In this document: positions 1 through 42,669 of the stretch, piece after piece
How the letters are laid out: each line of letters begins with the position of its first letter
Numbering within the stretch: position 1 is the stretch's first letter
NCBI RefSeq assembly: GCF_030028105.1
Contig: NC_092382.1
Coordinates: 85,274,198 to 85,338,197, forward strand
Source: Mobula birostris
Taxonomy: Eukaryota
Length of the DNA: 64,000 nucleotides
Direction of reading: 5' to 3'
Notes under the pieces: generated by a model
What the model was told of the DNA's origin: nothing
The model's database searches: none
What the model saw: the letters and a program-made list of their open reading frames with translations, nothing else
Position numbers and translations under genes: made by a program

Positions 1-224
1 GTCTCCGATTCTGCAAATCCGTGAGCGTGTACAGCGGGGTTCGGCTTTTGTCGGGAGCGGGAGGGAATACAAGGGGAGAAGGGAGCTCTGACACCTTCAG
101 CCAATTAATTGTTGACCAACTGCGTTAAAAGAAACTCGCGCACGGATAGTGATATCTAAAATGTCCCACGGGCCAGAGCAGGATCCCTTCTCCTATTTCT
201 CCCTCTCCCTCTCCCCCCACCCCA

Positions 225-11499: not shown

Positions 11500-12997
11500 C
11501 TCTGTAATAGAAATATGGAGAAGGTCATTACAGAAATATACCCACTCTGGAAGATCAAAATGGTAATCTATACGAGGAGGCAAGAGAGATGGGAGATATT
11601 TTAAATATTACTTTTGCACCTGTATTTACTCAGGAGACGGTTACAGAGTCTATAGAAGTGAGGCAAAGCAGCATCAACTTCATGGACCCTGTACAGATTA
11701 CAGAGGTGGAGGTGTTTGCTGTCTTAAGGCAAATTAGCGTGGATAAATCCCCAGAGCCTGACAAGTTGTTCCCTGGGACCCTGCAGAAGACAAGTGCAGA
11801 AATTTATGGAGACCAAGCACAGATATTTAAATCAAACTTAGTGACAGGCGAGGGACTGGAGGATTGGAGGATAGCCAATGTTGTTCCGTTGTTCAAGAAA
11901 CGTTCTAAAAATAAACTACGAAATAGTACATCGGTGAGCTTGACATCAGTAGTTGGAAAGTTATTGGAACATATGAGCAGGAACCGGATATGTAAGTATT
12001 TGGATAGATGTGGACTGATTAAGGATAGGCAACATGTCTTTGTGCATGGTAGGTCATGTCTAACCAACTTTATAGAGGTTCTCAAGGAAATTATCAGGAA
12101 AGTGGACGAAGGCAAGGCAGTTGATGTTTTCTACATGGACTTTAGCAAGGCACTTGGCAAAGTCTCATATGGAAGGTGGGTCAAGAAGGTTCAGTCATTC
12201 AGCATTCAAGATGAGATATTAAATTGGGTGAGACACTGAATTTGTGAGAAGCTGGAGTGTGGTTGCAGATGGTTGCCTCTCTGACTGGAGGCCTGTGACT
12301 AGTGATGTGACATAGGGATCAGTGCTGTATCTGTTGTTGTTTGTCATCTATGTCAGTAATCTGGTTGATAACATGGTTAACTGGATCAGCAAATTTGTGG
12401 ATGAAACCAAGAATGGGGGTTTAGCGGACTGCGAGAAGACTATCTTAACTTGCAGTGCGAACTGGACCAGCTGGAAAAATGGCTTGAGAAATGGAAAATG
12501 GAATTTAATGCACACTAGTGCGAGTTGTTGAACTTTGGTAGGACCTACTAGTGTAGGTCTTACACAGTGATTGGTAGGGCACTGAGGAGTGTTGTTGAAG
12601 GAAGGGATCTGGGAATACAGACCTGACGAAGGGTCTCGGCCCGAAACGTCGACTCTATCTCTTCCTAGAGATGCTCCCTGGCCTGCTGCGTTACCCAGTA
12701 ACTTTGATGTGTGTTGCTTGAATTTCCAGCATCTGCAGAATTCCTCATGTTTACGTCTGGGAATACAGGTCTATATTTCACTCAAAGTGGTATCACAGGT
12801 AGATAGAGATGGGAAGAAAGATTTTGGCACATTGGCCTTCATAAACCAAAGTACTAAGTACAGGAGATGGATTTATGTTGACATTGTACAAAACACTGGT
12901 GAGGCCTAATTTGTAGTATTGGGTGCAGTTTTGGTCACCAACCAACAGGAAGATGTAAAAGCAGTTGAAAGAGTTCAGAGAAAATTCACAAGGATTT
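11500..12997 (+). mobile_element. CR1 ORF2 RT region (degraded)
   Basis: ORF 11589-12239 (KSPEPD, DWRIANVVPLFKK, SLTSVVGKLLE, YMDFSKA) and downstream fragments. Confidence 0.9.
12621..12755 (+). mobile_element. Short Penelope-derived insertion with minimal hammerhead ribozyme motif
   Basis: 13-bp TSD TCTGGGAATACAG (12608-12620, 12756-12768); CTGACGA (12623-12629), stem II, GAAACGTC (12643-12650). The site is empty in the duplicate CR1 at ~14135. Confidence 0.85.
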
Positions 12998-14780: not shown

Positions 14781-15946
14781 GACAAGAACCTGAAATAATA
14801 GAAATATTTATTCTATTTCCTTTTAACAGCTATGCGGACCAACCATTCATCTCAGCAGGAAATCTTTACATGGCTTTAATATGTGGCATTTTAAATGAAC
14901 AGTATATAAAAGAAAATCCCAGCTGTAGATTAACAAAGGCTATTTGTGTGAGAGTGTTTCAGTTACCGTGGGGCCAGACACCCATGCATCTTAGTGGGGG
15001 CAGGGAATAATACCAATGGAGAGAGTCAAACTGAGCCAGGTCACAGATTGGAGACGGCAGAAACATAGAAAAGTATCCTACAGCACAAACAGGCCCCTCG
15101 GCCCATAAGGCTGTGCCGACCATGTTCTTACCTGAGAAATTACCTGGGGTTACCCATAGCCGTCTAATTTTCTGAGCTCCATATACCTGCCCAGGAGTCT
15201 CTTAAAATATCCGATAGTATACACCTCCACCAATATCACCGGTAGCCCATTCCATGCACTCACCACTCTGCGTTAAAAAAAAAAAAAAAAAAACTTACCC
15301 CTGATACCTCCTCTGCACCCATTCTTATAGAGACAGGAAAAGCATCAGAGAATTTGATGTCCATTCCAGATACCAGCACTATGTCCAGTTAGAAGATAAT
15401 TTTTCTCTCCAACTTCGGTTGACCCTCACTGTAACAGTGTGTTGTCAGATCACACTTTGGCAATTAAAGTGATCGCATCTGAAATGTTATCCTTCACCCA
15501 TTGACGGACTTTGTAATTTTTTTTTTCAGGTTAAAAACGACAAGCAATTTGTCTACGGAAATCTCGAACACAACACACCAGTTTTGCTGTGTCTGCCCAG
15601 ATATTTAAAAAGTGGAACGTTGTATTCATGCATTCGTCCTTCCTGCTCAGACTGTGAGGAGGGATTTATTTGTCGATCCTTCTTGTTTAGACTGGGAAGG
15701 GACACGCTCGGTCATCTGACCTACTGGCATACTCGTCATTTTACACAGTGTTCATCTGCTCCGACTGTGGGGACAGATTCACTTGGTCATCTCAACTGAA
15801 GGTACATCAGCGAGTTCACACTGGGACAAGGCCATTCACCTGTTCTGTGTGTGGGAAGGGATTCACTTGGTCATCCCACTTATGGACACACCAGTAAGGA
15901 GAGTCCAGTCACTCTGCTCAATTTGTGGGGCAGCTCATCTGACCTA

Positions 15947-17497
15947 ATGGCACATCAGCGAGTTCACACTGGGGAGAGGCCACTCACCTGCTCAGACTGT
16001 GGGAAGAGATTCACTTACTCTTCCAGCCTACAGAGATACCAGTCACTTCACAATGGAATGTGGCCATTCGCCTGCTCAGGCTGTGGGAAGGGATTCACTC
16101 GATCATCTCAAATGAAGGAACATCAGAGAGTTCACACTGGGGAGAGACAGTTCACCTGCTCACACTGTGGGAAGGGATTCACTTCGTTCTTTCAGCTGAA
16201 AGCACATCAGAGACTTCACACTGGGGAGAGGGTATTCATCTGTTTGTTGTGTGGGAAGGGATTCACTCAGTTATCTAACCTAAAAGCACACAAGTCAGTT
16301 CACACCGGGGAGAGGCCTTTCACCTGCTCAGACTGTGGGAAGATATTCACTCGATCATCTCAACTGAAGGTACATCAGAGAGTTCACACCAAGAATTCGT
16401 TCACCTGCTCAGACTGTGGGAAGGAATTCACTCAGTCATCCCACCTACTGAAACACCAGTCAATTCACACTGGGGAGAAGCTGTTCACCTGTTCAGTCTG
16501 TGGGAAGAGATTCACTCACTCTTCCAGCCGACAGAGACACCAGTCAGTTCACACTGGAAAGAGGTCGTTCACCTGCTCAGACTGTGGGAAGGGATTCACT
16601 GGGTCCTTTCAGCTGAAGGCACATCAGAGAATTCACACTGGGAAGAGACCATTCATCTGTTTGTTGTGTGGGAAGGGATTCACTCGGTTATCTAACCTAA
16701 AAGCACACATGTCAGTTCACACAGGGGAGAGGCCGTTTACCTGCTCAGACTGTGGGAAGGGATTCACTCGATCATCTCATCTGAAGGAACATCAGAGAAT
16801 TCACATTGGGGAGAAGCCGTTCACCTGCTCAGAATGTGGGAAGGGATTTACTCAATCATCATACCTGCAGAGACACAAGCTAGTTCACAGTGGGGAGAGG
16901 CTGTTCACCTGTTCGGACTGTGGCAAAGGATTCAATCGATTATACCACTTACAGATGCACCAGCGAATTCACACAGGGGAGAGGCCGTTCAGCTGCTCAG
17001 TCTGTGGGAAGGAATTCCATCGATCATCCGACCTTCGGAGACACCAGCGAATTCACACTGGGGAGAGGCCATTCAGCTGCTCAGTCTGTGGGAAAGGATT
17101 CACTTTGTCATCTCACCTACTGACACACCAGTCAGTTCACACTGGTGAGAGGCCGTTCACCTGCTCAGTCTGTGGGAAGAGATTCACTCAGTCATCCAAC
17201 CTACTGAGACACCAGAGAGTTCACACTGGGGAGAAGTCGTTCACTTGCTCAGACTGTGGAAAAGGTTTCATTCGGTCATCCGAACTGCTGGCACACCAGC
17301 GAGTTCACACTGGGAAGAAGCCGTTCACCTGCTCAGCCTGTGGGAAGGGATTCACTCGGTCATCCACCCTACTGGCACACCAGTCAGTTCATACTGGGGG
17401 AGGCCGATCATCTGCTCAAACAGTGGGAAGAGATTCTCAGCCAAATCAACTGAATGTGCATCAGCGAGTTGACAATGGAGAGAGGCCATTCACCTGA
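15947..17497 (+). CDS. Tandem C2H2 (Kruppel-type) zinc-finger protein, ~516 aa, 17 finger units
   Basis: Repeated CxxC-x12-HxxxH with TGE(R/K)PF linkers; first in-frame ATG at 15947 (MAHQRVHTGERP); splice acceptor (t)n-cAG at 15528-15529; AATAAA at 17773-17778. Finger 1 has His->Tyr. The start codon is inferred. Confidence 0.9.
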   Translation: MAHQRVHTGERPLTCSDCGKRFTYSSSLQRYQSLHNGMWPFACSGCGKGFTRSSQMKEHQRVHTGERQFTCSHCGKGFTSFFQLKAHQRLHTGERVFICLLCGKGFTQLSNLKAHKSVHTGERPFTCSDCGKIFTRSSQLKVHQRVHTKNSFTCSDCGKEFTQSSHLLKHQSIHTGEKLFTCSVCGKRFTHSSSRQRHQSVHTGKRSFTCSDCGKGFTGSFQLKAHQRIHTGKRPFICLLCGKGFTRLSNLKAHMSVHTGERPFTCSDCGKGFTRSSHLKEHQRIHIGEKPFTCSECGKGFTQSSYLQRHKLVHSGERLFTCSDCGKGFNRLYHLQMHQRIHTGERPFSCSVCGKEFHRSSDLRRHQRIHTGERPFSCSVCGKGFTLSSHLLTHQSVHTGERPFTCSVCGKRFTQSSNLLRHQRVHTGEKSFTCSDCGKGFIRSSELLAHQRVHTGKKPFTCSACGKGFTRSSTLLAHQSVHTGGGRSSAQTVGRDSQPNQLNVHQRVDNGERPFT

Positions 17498-20016: not shown

Positions 20017-20117
20017 AGCAACACACATCAAATTTGCTGGTGAACGCAACAGGTCAGGCAGCATCCACAGGAAGAGGCACAGTCGACGCTTCGGGCCGAG
20101 ACCCTTCGTCAGGGCCC
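20017..20117 (-). mobile_element. Short Penelope-derived hammerhead element
   Basis: 13-bp TSD TTTTCTCCTCTCA (20004-20016, 20118-20130); minus strand CTGACGAAGGGTCTCGGCCCGAAGCGTCGACT, with GAAA changed to GAAG. Confidence 0.85.
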
Positions 20118-26599: not shown

Positions 26600-27159
26600 T
26601 CTGTGTGAGATTCAGCCTGTCTTCCAGCTGCCCGCGATCTCGCTGAAGAAATTCTGAGCTGATGAATCTCCACGGTCATTCATTTATACTCGCTCCAGCA
26701 CACTGAATATCCATTACTACACAAGGCTGACGTGTCTTCCAACAGCTGGGGTAAAAATAAACATGACTTCATTCAAATAAAATCCCAAATGTGATGAGGT
26801 ATGGAGAGCTTCACAGCTTCAAATTGAAGAATCTCACAGATGAAGAAATGACGATTCAAGAAGTCAGTAAATGTTGTTTTGAAACACTCTCAAGGTCAGC
26901 TCTCCGTTTCATGAATCTTATTGTTGATCTTGTCCATTCCCAGACTCCATAGGTTTTGTCATCATAGACCAATTCGATACTGTCACTGGGCTACTCTGTT
27001 TCACTCTGAAAGCTGACTCTGTTATAGATCTTTCAATAGAAATATAAGAAAAAGCATATGTTGTTTGTACATTCCTGTAATATAGTGAGCAGCCATAAGC
27101 TGATATCGTATCCAGGCTTACGAGGTAGGGAACGCACACAATCCGTTAATCACAATAAT

Positions 27160-27850
27160 CACAACACATACAAAAAACTGGAAGAACTCAACACGGCAGC
27201 GTCTTTGGAGATGAATAAAGAGTCGACGTTTCATGCCGAGACGTCTTCTTCAAATTAATTCACAATTCGACGAGCACCTTAGCAGCAACAACAAAAACAG
27301 AATTTCCCAGTGGCCAACTATCTCAACTCTAATCCCCATTCCCAGTCCGAAATGTTCGGCCTATTGTCCCCTTTTCTGCAACATGAGCCCACTCTCAGGT
27401 TGGAGGAGTAACCTGCAAACATATTCTCTTTATGGAGCCTCCAATCATATGACATGAACACAGATATCTGAAACTTCCGGTGTTTATCCTCTTCTTCATT
27501 TCACCACTCTGGCCTCGTACTCTTCTCCTCACCTACCAGTCACCTCTCTCCGGTCCTCTCCTACTTCCCTTTCTCCCATGCTCCACTCTCTCCTATGAGA
27601 TTCCCTCTTCTCTAGCTCTTCGCTTTTTCCCATTATCACGCCAGCCACATTTCGTCCCCCTATCTAATGCATCTGGCTTCACCTACTGCCTTCCAGCTTG
27701 TGCTCTCTCCAGCTCCTCGGAACTTCCTTATTTTGGCATCTTTCCCGTTTTACTCCATCCCGAAACTGGGTTGCAGCCCGAAAAGTCAACTCTTTATTCA
27801 TTTTGATGCATGCTACCTGACCTGGTGAATTCCTCCTGCATCTTAAATAC
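27160..27850 (+). mobile_element. Penelope-like element remnant (GIY-YIG C-terminus) with inverted terminal hammerhead-type repeats
   Basis: FDEHL...PVAxxxNSxPHSxS...RLEE...IFxLxSLQ...MN; pyrimidine-rich 3' region; degenerate cccgaaa.gtc.act at ~27778 and an antisense copy at ~27220-27250. Confidence 0.7.
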
Positions 27851-27854
27851 ACAC

Positions 27855-30800
27855 AGTGACATGGACTCCACAGCCGCTCGTGGCAACAAATTCCGTAGAT
27901 TTACCACGCGCTGACTAAAGTAATTTTTCCGCGCCTCAGTTCAAAATGGACGCCCTTCCATCCTGAAGTTGTTCCCTCTTCTCCTAGACTCCCTTACCAT
28001 GGGAAAACTTTGCCACATCTAATCTCTTCAGACCTTTTAAGATTTGGAATGTGTCGATGAGATCCTCTATCGTTCTCCTGAACTCCAGGGAATACAGCCC
28101 AAGAGCTGCCAGACTTTCTTCATACATTGTATTCGCCTGCTTCACAACCGACTCAACCTGGAGGTGAACCTTTAGTGTATCTTGCACAAGTACTCCCAAG
28201 TCTCTTTGCATCTCTGCATTTTGAATTCTTTCCCCACCTAAATAATAGTCTGCCCATTTATTTCTTCCACCAAAGTGCTTGACCATACATTTTCCAACAT
28301 TGTATTTCATTTGCCACTTCTTTGCCCATTCCCCTAAATTATTTAAGTCTCTCTGCAGTCTCTCTGTTTCCTCAACACTGCACGCACCTCTACCTATCTT
28401 TGTATCATCGGCAAATTTAGCCACAAATCCATTACTAACGTGGTCCAAATCATTGACATATATAGTAAAAAGTAACTGTCCCAACACCAACCCCTGTGGA
28501 ACACCACTGGTAACTGGCTGCCAGCCAGAATAGGATCCCTTTATTCCCACTCTCTGTTTTCTGTCAACCAGCCAATGCTCCACCCATGCTACTAATTCCC
28601 CTGTAATTCCATGAGCTCTTATCTTGCTAAGCAGCCTCATGTGCGGCACCTTGTCAAAGGTCTTGTGAAAATCCAAGTACACCACGTTTACTGCATCACC
28701 TTTTGCAATTTACTCAAAGAATTGCAGTTGGTTTGTCAGGCAGAATTTTTCTTTCTGGAAACCAAGCGGGCTTTGGCCTGTCTTGCCATGTGCCCCCAGG
28801 TACTACATAATCTCATCCTTAACAATTTCCCAACCACTGATGTCAGGCTAACAGGTCTATAGTTTCATTTTTGCTCCCTCCCACCATTCGTCAATAGCGG
28901 AGTAACATTTGCAATTTTCCAGTTATCCGATTTTTGAAAGATCATTGCTACTGCCTCCGAAATCTCTCCAGCTATTCCCATCGGAACCCAAGGGTGCATT
29001 CCATCAGACCCAGGAGATTTATCCAGCGTCAGACCATTATGCTCCCTGAGCACCTTCTCAGTCGTAATTTCCACTGCACACACTTCATTTCCATGATACT
29101 CTTGAATGCCCGATGTACTGCAGGTGGCTTCCACTGTGAAGCCTGATGCAAAATTTGCATTCACTTCCTCTGCCATCTCTGCGTCTCGCATTACAATATC
29201 TCCAGCGTCATTTTTTTTTTGTTTTGTGTTTTTCTGGCGTGTGCCTGCGTGTGTGCGAGTCTGTGCGTGCGCGTCTGTGCGTGTGCGTCTGCGTGTCCGT
29301 GCGTGCTTCCGTGATGATCTCTTTTTCATGGCTTTTACAAGGCGCTGAGCGAGAGAGAGACTGTGTGGTGCGCCACTCCTCACACAGACATTTTCGCAGT
29401 ATTTTCCCTTGATTTTACTAGGTCGAGCTGCGATCTCGACACTGAACCCAGCACGGATGGAAAGCGTACTCGGGGGCGGACCCCACTGGTTTTAAACCCG
29501 GGAACCTCCGCTCCCGGGTCCGGCGCCCATGTCATTGCGCCACCAGCGTCATTTTCTATTCGTCCTCTATCTACCCTGAATTCTCTTTTCCTCTTTACAT
29601 AATTAAAAAGGTTTTAGTATCTTCTTTGATATTAGTCGCGAGGTTACTTTCATAATTCATTTTTTCCTTCCTAACGACCTTCTTAGTTTCCTTCTGCAAG
29701 TTTTTAAAAGCTTCCCAATCGTCTATCTTCCACTAGATTTGGCTTCCTTGTATGCCCTCTCTTCTGCTTTAGCTTTATCTCTGAATTTACTTGTCAGCCA
29801 TGGTAGTGTCCTTCCTCCATTCGAAAATTTCTTCTTATTTCGAATATATCTGACTTGCACTTTCCGCATTTTTCGCAGAAACCCCAGCCATCGCTGCTCT
29901 GCTGTCCTTCCTGCTAGTGTCCCTTTCCAGTCAACCTCGGCCAGTTCCCCTCTTATGCCATTGAAATGTCATTTATTCTGCTGATATACCGACACATTGA
30001 CATTTAGTTTCTGCTTCTGAAATTTCAAAGTGAACTCGATCATATTGTGATCACTGTTTCCTAATGGTTCCTTAACCTTAAGCTCTTTTATCGCCTCCCG
30101 ATCATTGCACAACACCCAACCCAGCACAGACAAACCCGTATTGAGTTGAACAGCAAGCTGTTCTAAAAAGCCATCTCTTAGACATTCTTCAATTTCAGTC
30201 TCCTGATGTCCAGTAATGGCCTGGTTTTCCCAATCCACTTTCATGTTAGAATCCCCCACGATGATCATGATATTGCCCTCTTGACACACCTGTCCTATCT
30301 CCTGCTGTAATTTGTAATCCATACCCCGGCTGCTGTTTGGAGGCTTGTATGGAACTGCCATTAGGATTCTTTTAGCGTTGCCATTTCTTAACTCAACCCA
30401 TAGAGATTCCAAACTTTCTGCTTCTGTGTCATCCCTTTCTTATACACAGAGCCACACCACCCATTCTGCCTACTAACCTATCTTTCCGATACACCGAATA
30501 TCCTTGGACTTTCATCACCCAATGGTAGCCATTCTTTAGCCGAGTTTCAGAGATAGCCGCAACGACGTACTTGCCAATCTGTACCTGAATTTAAATATCG
30601 TCCATTTTATTCCTTATGCTGCGTGTATTCAACAGTAACACTTTCAGTCCAGTATTTGCTGCTTTCTGTTTCAACTGCGCCACGCCTCTATTGCCCTGTA
30701 ACTGGCTGTGATTATGCCTCATCTGCTGTCTTTCCTTTCTATCATTTCTGTTGCACGCTATCTGTGATTTATTTCTGTTTTCCCCTTCCTAAGGCCTATC

Positions 30801-34963: not shown

Positions 34964-36387
34964 CTGCAGTGTGACAAAAAAGACCAAAAGCAAAAATTAA
35001 AAAAAAAAAATCAAAGCGCATTTTGTGCAGAAACACAACCATCTTTTGATCACTTGAATTAAATTCCATCGTTCATCTCTACTGGACTTTATCAGTGAAA
35101 GAAAACTTATACATGGGTTTATGCGGTTTCATTGAATACCTGACCGCAACATAAAGCGCTTCGCAGCAGCACATGCTCACATTAAACTCTTCACGTTCAC
35201 GGATGCAGCAGCTATGAGTAGAGTCCGAGAATGATAGAGCACAGAAACGGGTCCTTCTGCCCAATATCTTCATGCCGACCGACATGGCCGTCTGAGCTGG
35301 TCCCGTTTGTCCGCGTTTGGATCACATCTCTCTAAACCTTTCACATTAATGAAACTGTTAAAGTGCATTTCAAATATTGTCAATGACCTTATATCAACCA
35401 CTTCAATGCACAGACCAACTTCTGTGTGATAAAACGTCGCTCGGAATCCAACTACATTTCTGCCCTCTGAAGTTATGTCCACCCCCTCGAGAGACGTTAT
35501 GAGGGACGTTGGCTGCAAACACCTAAATCTCTCTGCGGCTGCACCTACTCGAGCATTGACCAGGTCCGATCTGATTTCCGCTGCGCTCCCTGAGAATTAT
35601 TCCCGTTCACCGTGAAACGGCAGTAGCCTCGCTCGGTGCTCCGTTTTTCTCTCCGTAACAGCGAAGCAACGACTTTGAAGGTCACTTGGCCGATAAGTAT
35701 TTACACTGGGGTGCGGGATTAATTACCGAAAGGGGTGTGGCTGTAAAGAGAATATCTTGACTAAAAAGTTGGGATGAGTTCACTAATTGGTGGGAGTTGG
35801 AGGTCGCGGGCTGCGGGTGCGAAGCGTCTGTTCTTGGGCTGAGTCTCTCATGAGCTCCAAACCAATTTTATTCCCCGCGCTGTCACGAGAGGGGTGAGTG
35901 AGATAAAGTGAAGGTGAGGTGTGTGAGAGACGGATTTCAGGAAGGGGGTGGGGTGAGAGGGTGGGTAGAGAATGAAGAAGAAGCATAGGGATGGGAGAGT
36001 AAAGGAACACGGAGGAACGAGGCTGAGAGAGAGTGTTGAGCTGAGGAGTTGGAGAAGGCTGAGAAGGTGATGAGTGGTGGGAATGAAGGGGCCGACGGGG
36101 AACGGTGAGCGCAAGGTGGAGAGAAGAGGATAAAGATAGTGAGGGAGATTCACACACAGACAGGGTGTTGGGTAATTCCATTCCTCTGCCCCACTCACAG
36201 TAAACCATCTGCAGATATAATTCGATCAGCGAAAACAGGGTACAACACTCGATGCGAGAATATGCGAATCCTGTAAGAAGTCCACACCACCAACTTGAAG
36301 GAATATACAATCCAGAACTATGAAGAAATTATAACTGCAGGAGAAAACATTAACCGATGAAAGAAAATGAATCTTCATGGAAGACAT

Positions 36388-36546
36388 AAACAACAGGAAT
36401 TCTGCAGATGCTGGAAATTCACGCAACACACATGAAAGTTGCTGGTGAACGCAGCAGGCCAGGCAGCATCTCTGGGAAGAGGTACAGTCGACGTTTCGGG
36501 CCGAGACTCTGGCCCGAAACGTCGACTGCACCTCTTCCTAGGGAGA
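36388..36546. mobile_element. Short Penelope-derived element with fold-back end
   Basis: 15-bp TSD CTTCATGGAAGACAT (36373-36387, 36547-36561); inverted repeat gaagaggtacagtcgacgtttcgggcc / ggcccgaaacgtcgactgcacctcttc. Confidence 0.85.
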
Positions 36547-36959
36547 CTTCATGGAAGACATCCCACTAACTGAGCAAAAGCGATGTTCCCAATGAAGCTT
36601 TGAAGCCTGGCTGAAGGTTGAACACCACATCACAAAACTAGCGGGCTTTCTGTTGGTAATACATGACCACGTGGTTAACGCAAACAAAAAAAGTCAAAAA
36701 TTCATAATAAAGATAAACGATTAATGATGATAAATGCAGAAAATTCCATCAGAAGCAAGTAACAATGCAACTTATTACTGGATCCTGCAACAGTTTAACT
36801 CAATCTGATGACTTACACGGGCAGATTCAAGTGAGAGGCATCATTCATTAAAATCTTGCTCTAAATCATGAGCTCATCCAGAACGTATATTACCATAAAT
36901 GCAGACCTGATCCATTTGTAGAGTCGGATTCCTAACTGACTGATCTAATATTACAGCTT

Positions 36960-37365
36960 GTGCAATAAATAACACCTGTTCCGATATAATATTACAGGGT
37001 GAACAAGAAAGAACAAATTACTTAATAGATCTCGCCATTCCAAACACACACAACATTCTGCAATCATTCCCTGAAAAACATCGAAAATATGCTGACGTGT
37101 GAAAGGAAATTAAAAGGCTGTGGTACATGAACAGCGTATAAATTGTCCCATTTTTAATATCTATAATGTGTTTCATTCCAAAGTGACGACACAATAACAT
37201 TAAACAATTAGATCTGCACGACAGTATTCATTTTAATCTCCAGAATGCCACTAAACGAAACAGCACTAGAACTGTCTGAAAACGCCTTGCAATGAGAAAA
37301 GTGTCGGCTTGTCTATCTCCACACGGCAAGTTTGACCAGTTTTAACTGAGAAATAAAAAAAAATA
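36960..37365 (+). mobile_element. R4/Dong-clade RLE domain and 3' tail
   Basis: SDIILQ...YLIDLAIPNTHN...EKHRKY...EIKRLW...IVP.LIS...IPK; ends in an A/TAA-rich tail. Confidence 0.75.
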
Positions 37366-37377
37366 ATAACAATCATG

Positions 37378-37643
37378 TGACACACATCAAAGTTGCTGGT
37401 GAACGCAGCAGGCCAGGCAGCATCTCTAGGAAGAGGTACAGTCGACGTTTCAGGCCGAGAGGGTCAGGGTCTCAGCCTGAAACGTCGACTGTACCGCTTC
37501 CTAGAGAAGTCCTGACGAAGGGTCTCGGCCTGAAACGTCGACTGCACCTCTTCCTAGAGATGCTGCCTGGCCTGCTGCGTTCACCAGCAAATTTGATGTG
37601 TCTTGCTTGAATTTCCAGCATCTGCAGAATTCCTGTTGCTTGC
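37378..37643 (+). mobile_element. Composite Penelope-derived element (inverted plus tandem units)
   Basis: 12-bp TSD ATAACAATCATG (37366-37377, 37644-37655); one antisense unit, one partial unit and one full sense unit. Confidence 0.88.
37508..37543 (+). ncRNA. Minimal type-I hammerhead ribozyme motif
   Basis: AGTC-CTGACGA-(A)GGGT CTCG GCCT-GAA-ACGT-C-GACT. Stem I is AGUC/GACU; core is CUGAnGA and GAA; palindromic ACGU replaces stem III; predicted cleavage after GUC (37539). Confidence 0.75.
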
Positions 37644-38237
37644 ATAACAATCATGCGATTGTCCTAGAGTGAATGCAAGAGCTTCAATAGGCAGATTATT
37701 CAGATGGGAAATTATTAGCAATCAGTAAGTGAGATGACATTCCTCCCATAGAGAACAGTAAACATCCCGGTGGTGGACGGTGGGTCATAGAAATGTGCTC
37801 ATTCATGAACAGAATGTATGCGTTCTGTAGTGTTAAGCATTTCTCCATAACAGGTTTATCTAATGTGAAAGACAAATGCAAGGTTTACTGAAAGTACGGC
37901 AGACTGCTGATTTCTTTTTCATTTCATGTCATTCTTATGCAAATATTAAGTAACGAATGATAGGCATCTCCGCCGATTTGGTCTCGAACCTCCTCAGATT
38001 CGGATCCGCTCTATCATAGTCGAAACGGCCGTGGCGGTGACGAGAGCGGAAATATGGTGAAAACAAGCAACAGTCAGGTTAATAATCGGTAGGAGGTGGG
38101 TGTCGCGTTTAGTGGGCACCGAACAGTCTGTTCCTGTGCTGTGACGTGTTTTTAATTCCCCCGCTGCTACGTTACCTGAGGACCGCCAGTTCTGTAGTGT
38201 CAAAAATAATAACACTGCGACCAGCTCTGAGAAGAAC

Positions 38238-40780: not shown

Positions 40781-41164
40781 ATGTAATGACTGTAAATTCC
40801 CAGCTTGACACGAAATTGCAAAAACTCAAAGGCAAAGAAATGACAATTTGAGAACTCAATGAATGTTGTTGCGAAACACTCACGCTCACCTCTCGGTTTC
40901 ATGATCGTTACTGATTTCTTGTCCATTCCTCAGCTCCATGGACTTTGTCATCATAGACCGTTGTCATACTGTCATTGGGCCGCTCTGTTTCTTTCAAAAT
41001 TGTGTCGGTTGTAGATCTTGCAATAGAAGTATGTGTATATACGATTGTATATATATATAAATGTGGTTTGTACGCTACAGTAACCTACAGGGGAGCCTTA
41101 AACTAAGATAGCGTCCAGGCTGACGAAGATATTGAAGGCATGCAAAATGTTAATCAAATTAATT

Positions 41165-41805
41165 GTAACACGAACAAAATGCTGTAAGAACTCAACAGAT
41201 CAAGCAACATATATGAATATGAACAAACTGTCGACGTTTCTGTCCGAGACATCTTCAAAATTAACGCTTCATCGATCACCTCAGCTCTATCAACAAAAAA
41301 ACGGAACTTCCCAGGAGCCAGTCATTTCAATTTCGATCCCCGGTCTAGACCTGACATGTCGCTGGAGGTAAAATACCTTCCGTCTTGGTAACATCGAATA
41401 TTAAGGCATGAACATGGGTTATCTTCCGGAATTTTTCCCCTCTGCTTTCCCTCTTCTTCATTCCCCCACTCTGGCCTTATTCTCTTCTCCTTACCTATCT
41501 ATCACCTCTATTTGCTGCCCATCCTCCTCCCCTTTCTCCCATGAGCCTCTCTCCTATTGGACTCTTTCTTCTACATCGCTTTGCGTTTTCACATCACCCC
41601 AGACATTTATTTGGTTCCCCTACTGCATCCACCTGGCTCCATGTAACACCTTGTAGATTATCCTCCTCTCCTCCCCCAACCTTCTTACACGGGTATCTTC
41701 CCCTTCCCTTTCCACTCGAAAGGTCACGACCCGAAAGGTCAACTGTTGTTTTTTTTTCATTTCCATAGATGCTACTTAACTTGCTGAGTTCACCCTGCAT
41801 TTTGT
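41165..41805 (+). mobile_element. Penelope-like remnant, paralog of 27160-27850
   Basis: Same order of parts: antisense gtcgacgtttc...ccgagac, GIY-YIG relic (PGASHFN), pyrimidine tract, gacccgaaaggtcaact. Confidence 0.7.
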
Positions 41806-42669
41806 GGGCGCATCAAATTGGTGCAGTCTCTCTCATAGTAAACCAGCTCCCTTCAAAGTTCGCACCAGTATTTCAATTAGCGTATACATCACCAACGAAT
41901 TGCTGCAAATATTTAAACCACAGAGCATCGGCATTCCTTACGTTTGTACCAACAATGACTGTCTGTACATGGACTAAGTTGGTTGCGTTGCTGATAGTCA
42001 AGTAGATAGTCAGATTTACCTATTTGACAGATCTCAACTGCGCTTTCGCTCTGCATATAATACGACATTGCATATTCTTGTTTTTTTTTGCCGTGACATG
42101 CTACTTCGATGCATTTTTGTAAACTGCTTAAAAGACAAGAAAAAAAACTTTCAAGTACCAGATTCTGCTGGCGGTAATAAGCCAATGGATCTTCGGTTAT
42201 GAGATAAATTTATCAACCTGTCAACATTCATCGAAGGGCCGACAGGAGTCAATTTTGGGTGATACCTTCCTTGGACGAGTAGTATCGGGAAACTTACAAA
42301 GGGTGACGGGGTTCTCGAGTGCTGATGTAGAGACGGCCAAGGAAATAGGGTTTCAGACATGAATGAAGGGTGGATAGTGTGCAGTTCAATATGTTCCGAT
42401 TACCGCCTTCATTGACGGGGAAGGTCATGAGCAATGGCATATAATTATGGTCTGATTAGAATACCTCAACGTTGGGATGTGATTACAGTGGAGCCGATGC
42501 AAAAGGTTTCACCAGCAACTTGCCGAACAAGAAGCATTTCAGATATCAGCGGATAGTCTATCATTCCCTTCTTGAAACTGAGGAAGAAGAGGTGTTTCAT
42601 ACAGAAGTTTAAAAATTATTAGCGACATACATGTGTTCAGTACTGGTGACATTTTTCTCCATAGGGTTT

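What the first reader, a model, noticed from the sequence alone, without database searches (positions are those of the whole stretch)
37378..37643. Short mobile elements built around a minimal hammerhead ribozyme (retrozyme-like)
Seen: four 100-270 bp insertions (12621-12755, 20017-20117, 36388-36546, 37378-37643), each with its own 12-15 bp TSD and no ORF. They share all or part of CTGACGA-stem II-GAAACGTC-GACT. The copy at 37508-37543 has a complete stem I, with palindromic ACGU replacing stem III. Established: Penelope-like elements carry such minimal hammerheads, thought to cleave as dimers, and non-autonomous retrozymes exist in other animals. Inference: this is a recently active non-autonomous family mobilised by a Penelope RT/GIY-YIG; four young copies in 64 kb suggests a very high copy number.
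Basis: partly seen in the sequence, partly recalled or inferred. Interest (0 to 1): 0.7.

Follow-up and report, generated by a model that had tools for sequence, protein, structure and literature searches.

The report
Truncated Penelope ends starting at ribozyme
These four short insertions are cut-off end pieces of a very common Penelope-type jumping gene rather than a mobile family of their own, but about half of the copies that reach its ribozyme motif stop at the motif's outer edge, likely because the element's RNA begins there.

Summary
The four insertions, their 12-15 bp target-site duplications and the minimal hammerhead at 37508-37543 are real; only one of the four holds a complete motif. 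They are not a retrozyme family. The same 136 bp is the hammerhead-plus-tail end (pLTR) of a 3.5-kb Neptune-type Penelope-like element: 29 of 30 RT loci carry it downstream, and 23 of 30 ORF-start loci carry the whole hammerhead upstream. In 1.46 Mb of evenly spaced samples there were 63 insertions (about 170,000 genome-wide), 21 reaching into the ORF; 3' ends cluster at two sites 33 nt apart; 19 are inverted. Short and ORF-linked copies share the same variants. Truncation is not random: 26 of 54 ends at risk stop within 15 nt of the hammerhead's 5' edge, with no excess at the predicted cut site, against 2 of 23 on a second pass through the motif. Likely cause: run-off at the RNA's start. Untested: cleavage and the start site. 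This scan noted the same pattern before, on other DNA and in this genome.

The parts
37366..37377 (+). left target-site duplication, 12 bp
   Evidence: control
37378..37460 (-). inverted arm, element positions +98 to +16, without the tail
37461..37507 (+). 5-nt linker and partial repeat of element positions +12..+53 (no CUGANGA), likely a template jump during copying
   Evidence: origin inferred
37508..37543 (+). complete minimal type I hammerhead motif; stem II closes with G-U, not G-C; predicted cut after 37539
   Evidence: cleavage untested
37544..37643 (+). rest of the pLTR end and the 33-nt tail (+37..+136); genomic copies end near +99 or +134
37644..37655 (+). right target-site duplication, 12 bp
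12621..12755 (+). short copy, about +4..+134, 13-bp TSD, inserted in an older LINE-like repeat
20017..20117 (-). short copy, about +4..+100, no tail, GAAA changed to GAAG, 13-bp TSD
36388..36546 (.). inverted insertion: minus arm +12..+134 (36510-36388) and plus arm +20..+53 (36511-36544), 15-bp TSD

Best explanation
The four insertions are 5'-truncated copies, two of them with inverted arms, of the hammerhead-bearing end of an abundant 3.5-kb Penelope-like retrotransposon, and they likely arose when the element's own enzyme began copying about 100-135 bases into an RNA that starts at the hammerhead and ran off that RNA's 5' end. Shown: the unit is the pLTR and tail of an element with one ORF (RT, C-x4-C-x2-C linker, C-terminal GIY-YIG); genomic 3' ends fall at two sites 33 nt apart; TSDs are 10-17 bp; in inverted copies one arm has the tail and the other does not; 5' ends are enriched from about -3 to +15. 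Inferred from the anole element (PMC11167929): the endonuclease cuts both target strands, and RT starts internally at either end of the tail, guided by the ORF-start sequence downstream. Inferred here (about 0.5): a transcript that starts at the initiator-like bases at -3/+1 has this start region in its leader, so it yields only stubs; long and more-than-unit copies come from a template with no end at +1 (read-through multimer or circle). Inverted copies would be two such cDNAs primed from the two cut ends and joined. The stubs are dead ends: they lack the ORF-start sequence that the anole enzyme needs.
For: Linkage: 29 of 30 loci found with an RT fragment have the unit about 1.5 kb downstream; 23 of 30 loci found with the tail/ORF-start junction have the complete hammerhead upstream, head to tail (the query held the last 24 nt of the tail, so only the extension beyond it counts). 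A natural copy has an 819-codon open stretch; Pfam gives RVT_1 below its cut-off in 2 of 2 proteins and GIY-YIG at its cut-off in 1 of 2. Unselected sample of 146 ten-kb stretches: 63 insertions, of which 33 lie wholly at or after -15, 9 reach the 3' UTR and 21 reach the ORF; 19 are inverted, 18 of them with exactly one tailed arm. Both 3'-end clusters lie in a repeated 9-mer at +94..102 and +127..135. Mean distances short-short 0.050, short-long 0.051, long-long 0.046 (53 short, 39 long). Stop rate per base: 2.1% in -15..+15, 0.38% in +16..+75, 0.35% in -70..-16 (75 ends; binomial p = 1e-7). Whole-genome exact counts: a foreign base before +2 in 1,922 of 24,515 (7.8%), before +1 in 1,871 of 22,593 (8.3%), before -3 in 623 and before -5 in 301 (about 3% and 1.5% against an approximate denominator of 20,722). 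First pass 26 of 54 stop at the edge, second pass 2 of 23 (Fisher p = 0.0008; 17 of 27 for pieces >=93% identical). D. virilis Penelope has an internal promoter in its pLTR (PMC2377424).
Against: No RNA start was observed: the four runs laid were contigs of guessed kind. The pile-up is broad (about -3 to +14), not one base. No excess of cap-type G: 4 of 11 clean junctions at +1 have G before the element, and 28 of the 100 listed matches at +1 begin with G (counted by eye). If transcripts start at +1 in tandem arrays, full-length copies should also end there, yet 21 of 23 run past it, so a second template has to be assumed. The second-pass set was picked by similarity to one young copy and 5' ends come from BLAST edges (a few bases of error). 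Related families that share the motif but differ upstream can mimic an end at +1 (1 clear and 1 doubtful case of 30 loci). No fully intact ORF was found among the six long loci read. The initiator consensus is recalled, and short enough to occur by chance.
Confidence: 0.8

Rival explanations
1. A non-autonomous retrozyme-like family: a defined short unit is transcribed, cut by its hammerheads, circularised and re-inserted by the Penelope enzyme.
For: A preferred 100-136 bp size class exists; 33 of 63 sampled insertions hold no coding sequence or upstream UTR; animal retrozymes are related to pLTRs (10.64898/2026.07.22.740005).
Against: No head-to-tail repeat of the hammerhead in 63 of 63 insertions; boundaries lie at the motif's 5' edge and at the tail, not at the cut site (non-T base before +33 in about 1.1% of 59,821; 89 of 100 listed are CpG-type T); continuous 5' ends into the ORF; same variants in short and long copies; three of four window copies lack a full motif.
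Confidence: 0.05
2. Same element, but the pile-up comes from early RT drop-off and from joining at the self-complementary stems of the hammerhead, not from an RNA end.
For: The zone is broad; several inverted junctions use stem I or stem II microhomology; newly started RT may be less processive than RT that has already copied 3.5 kb, which could explain 2 of 23.
Against: The pile-up is as strong in non-inverted copies (13 of 38 ends) as in inverted ones (13 of 37); the rate is low in +16..+75, closer to the RT start and at the 3' side of the stems where a stall would be expected, and falls again upstream of -3; the upstream sequence is predicted to be mostly unpaired.
Confidence: 0.3
3. Same element, but the RNA end at the motif is made by processing, for example at a 3' splice site: the bases before the motif read like a branch point, pyrimidine tract and AG.
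For: The sequence shows such a tract with AG at -3/-2 and +1/+2; in D. virilis the intron ends at the 5' end of helix I (PMC4209133).
Against: In 11 of 30 loci that start at +1 the TSD abuts the element within 8 nt, with no upstream exon; no joint into this site was listed in four runs of contigs (weak).
Confidence: 0.1

Closest known systems
Endonuclease-positive Penelope-like elements of Neptune/Nematis type (PMC8557442, passages; PMC3846280, passages)
   Same: One ORF with RT, Cys-rich linker and C-terminal GIY-YIG; partial tandems forming pLTRs; heavy 5' truncation; adjacent inverted truncated copy; 30-40 bp tail at only one end; TSDs.
   Different: Nothing in architecture. A pile-up of 5' ends at the hammerhead's 5' edge, absent on the second pass, was not seen in the passages read.
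Minimal hammerheads of metazoan PLEs (PMC4209133, parts 1-2 of 4)
   Same: Stem I of 4-5 bp, extra base before stem II, palindromic positions 15.2-16.2, mostly single motifs that the paper relates to truncated PLEs.
   Different: Stem II has 4 bp; the commonest young variant has G-U at 10.1-11.1 where the paper reports a conserved G-C (exact motifs: 11 G-U, 3 G-C).
Poseidon of Anolis carolinensis, PAc (PMC11167929, parts 1-2 of 4)
   Same: Two RT start sites bounding a tail downstream of the hammerhead; copies include the uncut motif, as if unprocessed RNA is the template.
   Different: In PAc the ORF starts inside the hammerhead and the paper saw no strand difference in start site; here the first ATG is at +171 and 18 of 19 inverted copies pair one tailed with one untailed arm.
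Non-LTR retrozymes of animals (PMC7229834, passages; 10.64898/2026.07.22.740005, parts 1-3 of 5)
   Same: Type I hammerhead, no coding sequence in the short copies, relation to pLTRs, long TSDs.
   Different: Retrozymes are tandem repeats of a defined monomer with a hammerhead in each unit; these copies are single or inverted, of variable length, and continuous with the coding element.

Membership tests
EN+ Penelope-like element | single ORF with RT followed by GIY-YIG endonuclease | tested here: met
   (RVT_1 weak, E 1e-5 and 3.5e-4; GIY-YIG at cut-off in one of two proteins); ORF lies in longer copies elsewhere, not in the four window copies
EN+ Penelope-like element | partial tandem giving a pLTR on both sides of the ORF | tested here: met
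   29 of 30 downstream, 23 of 30 upstream with full motif
EN+ Penelope-like element | optional 30-40 bp tail and inverted truncated copy | tested here: met
   3' ends near +99 and +134; 19 of 63 inverted, 18 with one tail
EN+ Penelope-like element | hammerhead motif in the pLTR | tested here: met
   sequence and descriptor scan, 42 matches in 1.46 Mb
Neptune clade | C-x2-5-C-x2-C linker between RT and endonuclease (shared with Nematis) | tested here: met
   C-x4-C-x2-C in the translations; definition from PMC8557442
Neptune clade | RT groups with Neptune references in a tree | not tested
   no reference set was fetched
Non-LTR retrozyme | head-to-tail tandem of a short monomer with a hammerhead in each unit | tested here: not met
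   none in 63 of 63 sampled insertions or in the window; rare arrays elsewhere are not excluded
Non-LTR retrozyme | defined non-coding unit independent of the coding element | tested here: not met
   5' ends -2707..+105; shared variants
Non-LTR retrozyme | self-cleavage and circular RNA | not testable with these tools
   only contigs were available
Minimal type I hammerhead | CUGANGA, stem II, GAAA, palindromic ACGU, UH, stem I | tested here: met
   37508-37543; other three window copies incomplete
Minimal type I hammerhead | covariation in stems I and II | tested here: inconclusive
   42 descriptor matches were chosen for pairing and are nearly all one young family; variation is mainly one-sided

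The most novel reading that the evidence does not exclude
The genome holds tens of thousands of run-off copies of the element's RNA leader: RT starts at the tail inside the 5' leader of a transcript that begins at the first base of the hammerhead, while long copies come from a circular or multimeric template. Insertion ends would then map the transcription start, give genomic support for two template forms (and so for a role of the hammerhead in making circles), and show that the two RT start sites are assigned one to each cut strand.
Probability: 0.45. Interest if true: 0.5.

Novelty: new member of a known kind. Interest (0 to 1): 0.3.

Why it matters
As a finding of a new mobile family it falls: these are ordinary Penelope stubs. 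What remains is mechanistic. How Penelope-like elements make tails, inverted ends and partial tandems, and what their hammerhead does, is still open (PMC11167929 found cleavage dispensable in vitro). Here the end statistics give exact, testable predictions: an RNA start at -3/+1, RT starts at +99 and +134 in a repeated 9-mer, one per strand, and a second template without a 5' end at the motif. It also warns that short hammerhead-bearing repeats with TSDs can be mistaken for retrozymes.

Tried and rejected
Rfam scan of the window: no hammerhead family, one chance hit. DNA search with a 64-nt piece found nothing, probably because common words are skipped. Sequencing runs: no RNA holder listed; four runs of contigs laid on the pLTR-ORF junction cannot show starts, ends or strand; loose ends at +1/+2 appeared in three of four runs, but in one the loose part looks like the UTR of a related family, so this was not used. 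Cap-derived G: no excess. Ends at the predicted cut site: no excess. A functional hammerhead dimer inside the 266-bp insertion: rejected, the middle repeat and inverted arm lack CUGANGA. Local enrichment in the window: rejected. Loci for unselected matches of the common pattern could not be cut out, so exact 5' ends rest on 75 sampled ends and on pattern counts; denominators at -3 and -5 were not measured. Rows dropped: pieces under 85% identity or under 30 nt; pieces ending before +45 or cut by a stretch edge; three of 30 start-at-+1 loci (L250, L267, L268) and six of 30 upstream pLTRs with over 30 unaligned positions. Eight of 160 requested stretches did not exist. Literature searches showed no paper whose listing or passages describe the 5' pile-up; subscription journals, Repbase reports and supplements were not seen.

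Full report
Observation. I number the element from +1 = window 37508. The motif at +1..+36 has all parts of a minimal type I hammerhead as defined in PMC4209133 (parts 1-2 of 4 read), with a predicted cut after +32. The other three copies start at about +4, +4 and +12 and lack stem I or the core. The 266-bp insertion is an inverted arm (+98..+16), a linker, a partial repeat (+12..+53) and a main arm (+1..+136). The 3.1 kb around it occurs four times on the same contig at 99.5-99.9% identity, so this locus was duplicated after insertion.

What the unit belongs to. The window lies in a 4.0-Gb genome. Among the 30 best matches to +1..+136 (27 independent loci), shared sequence ends at a fixed 3' point and extends upstream for 6 to about 1,040 nt in direct orientation. 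The longer ones run through a pyrimidine-rich UTR into a GIY-YIG-like and an RT-like frame. Searching with the RT part, 29 of 30 loci have the unit about 1.5 kb downstream. Six long loci gave a 3.5-kb unit, open stretches up to 819 codons, and no fully intact ORF. Pfam: RVT_1 below cut-off in both proteins, GIY-YIG at cut-off in one. A C-x4-C-x2-C linker precedes the endonuclease, the mark of Neptune and Nematis in PMC8557442 (passages); no tree was built. The tail continues directly into the ORF start, with the first ATG at +171, and 23 of 30 ORF-start loci carry the whole hammerhead upstream. This is the standard partial tandem with pLTRs. That the host is a cartilaginous fish is my recall of such repeats, not a result.

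Unselected sample. In 146 ten-kb stretches at round coordinates (1,459,800 bases) there were 63 insertions at >=85% identity, one per 23 kb, about 170,000 genome-wide. Four in 64 kb is expected. Of the 63, 33 lie wholly at or after -15, 9 reach the UTR and 21 the ORF; 19 are inverted; 21 show a TSD of 10-17 bp; none has a head-to-tail repeat of the hammerhead. 3' ends form two clusters, near +99 and +134, each in a copy of a repeated 9-mer 33 nt apart. In 18 of 19 inverted copies exactly one arm has the tail; the exception is cut by a stretch edge. These match the tail at only one end described in PMC8557442 and PMC3846280 (passages) and the two internal RT start sites of the anole element (PMC11167929, parts 1-2 of 4). 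Short and ORF-linked copies carry the same variants at eight variable positions and are no closer within than between groups. The retrozyme definition, tandem monomers each with a hammerhead (PMC7229834, passages; 10.64898/2026.07.22.740005, parts 1-3 of 5), is not met.

The non-random part. Of 75 5' ends, 26 lie in -15..+15: 2.1% per base at risk, against 0.38% downstream and 0.35% upstream. It holds for direct (13 of 38) and inverted arms (13 of 37). Whole-genome exact counts agree: a foreign base precedes +2 in 7.8% and +1 in 8.3% of matches, about 3% at -3 and 1.5% at -5 (last two on an approximate denominator). Of 30 loci with a foreign base before +1, one was a point change in a long copy, one a divergent relative, one doubtful, and the rest junctions. 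At the predicted cut site the raw figure is 9.9%, but 89 of 100 listed are C-to-T at a CpG; other bases give about 1.1% (letters counted by eye). So copies come from RNA that is uncut at the hammerhead and often stop at its 5' edge. More-than-unit copies, which cross the motif a second time, stop there in only 2 of 23 cases against 26 of 54 (Fisher p = 0.0008).

Mechanism. Shown: element identity, two 3' sites, TSDs, arm asymmetry, the pile-up and its absence on the second pass. From the literature: both target strands are cut and extended, RT starts internally and needs ORF-start sequence downstream, and hammerhead cleavage is dispensable in vitro (PMC11167929); the D. virilis element has an internal promoter (PMC2377424, part 2 of 4). 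Inferred: a transcript starting at the initiator-like bases at -3/+1 (consensus recalled) is primed in its own leader and RT runs off its end, giving 100-136 bp stubs, joined singly to the target or pairwise head to head; long copies need a multimer or a circle. Against this: no RNA start was observed, the zone is broad, there is no excess of cap-type G, and early drop-off with stem-guided joining could give part of the pattern. I put the element assignment at about 0.9 and the run-off step at about 0.5. Whether the hammerhead cuts is unknown; the commonest young variant has G-U where G-C is usually conserved, and only 1 of 9 predicted frog dimers cleaved in the preprint.

Novelty and verdict. 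A new member of a known kind: stubs of a Neptune-type Penelope-like element. My seven literature searches showed no account of the 5' pile-up, but cover only open papers. My reading was set down before I looked at the scan's notes; they hold 357 findings with the same words in at least 37 genomes, and the eight shown reach much the same reading, one in this genome. They are not independent support. Interest 0.3; if the two-template reading is confirmed, 0.5.

Noticed in passing
window 36200-37900 and L002-L004: The 3.1 kb holding two of the insertions occurs four times on the same contig at 99.5-99.9% identity, up to 45 Mb apart: a recent segmental duplication.
   Followed up: partly
window 15800-17497 (+): A 565-codon open stretch of tandem C2H2-type zinc fingers (84-bp period).
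   Followed up: no
window 27286-27480 (+), 27720-27900 (+), 27150-27330 (-), 41150-41330 (-), 41680-41860 (+): Older remnants of related Penelope-like ends: a C-terminal endonuclease fragment (51% identity to the family's protein) and decayed hammerhead-like motifs.
   Followed up: partly
window 36962-37300 (+): A stop-interrupted frame that recalls the C-terminal endonuclease region of a non-LTR element (resemblance from memory, untested); two of the insertions flank it.
   Followed up: no
L138, L147, L158, L160: Copies in which the 5' part of the ORF is joined directly to a pLTR piece starting at -107, +1, -7 or -62: internal deletions or template jumps, two of four at the pile-up zone.
   Followed up: no
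L013, L254, L257: Young copies inserted in or beside older, 70-80% identical pLTR remnants, hinting at a target preference for the element's own ends.
   Followed up: no
L137, L139, L140, L143, L144 and others: A 212-bp segment of the ORF's N-terminal region occurs once, twice or three times in different copies.
   Followed up: no
element positions -20..+2 (e.g. L064): The bases before the hammerhead read like a branch point, pyrimidine tract and two AG acceptors, where D. virilis Penelope has an intron end.
   Followed up: partly
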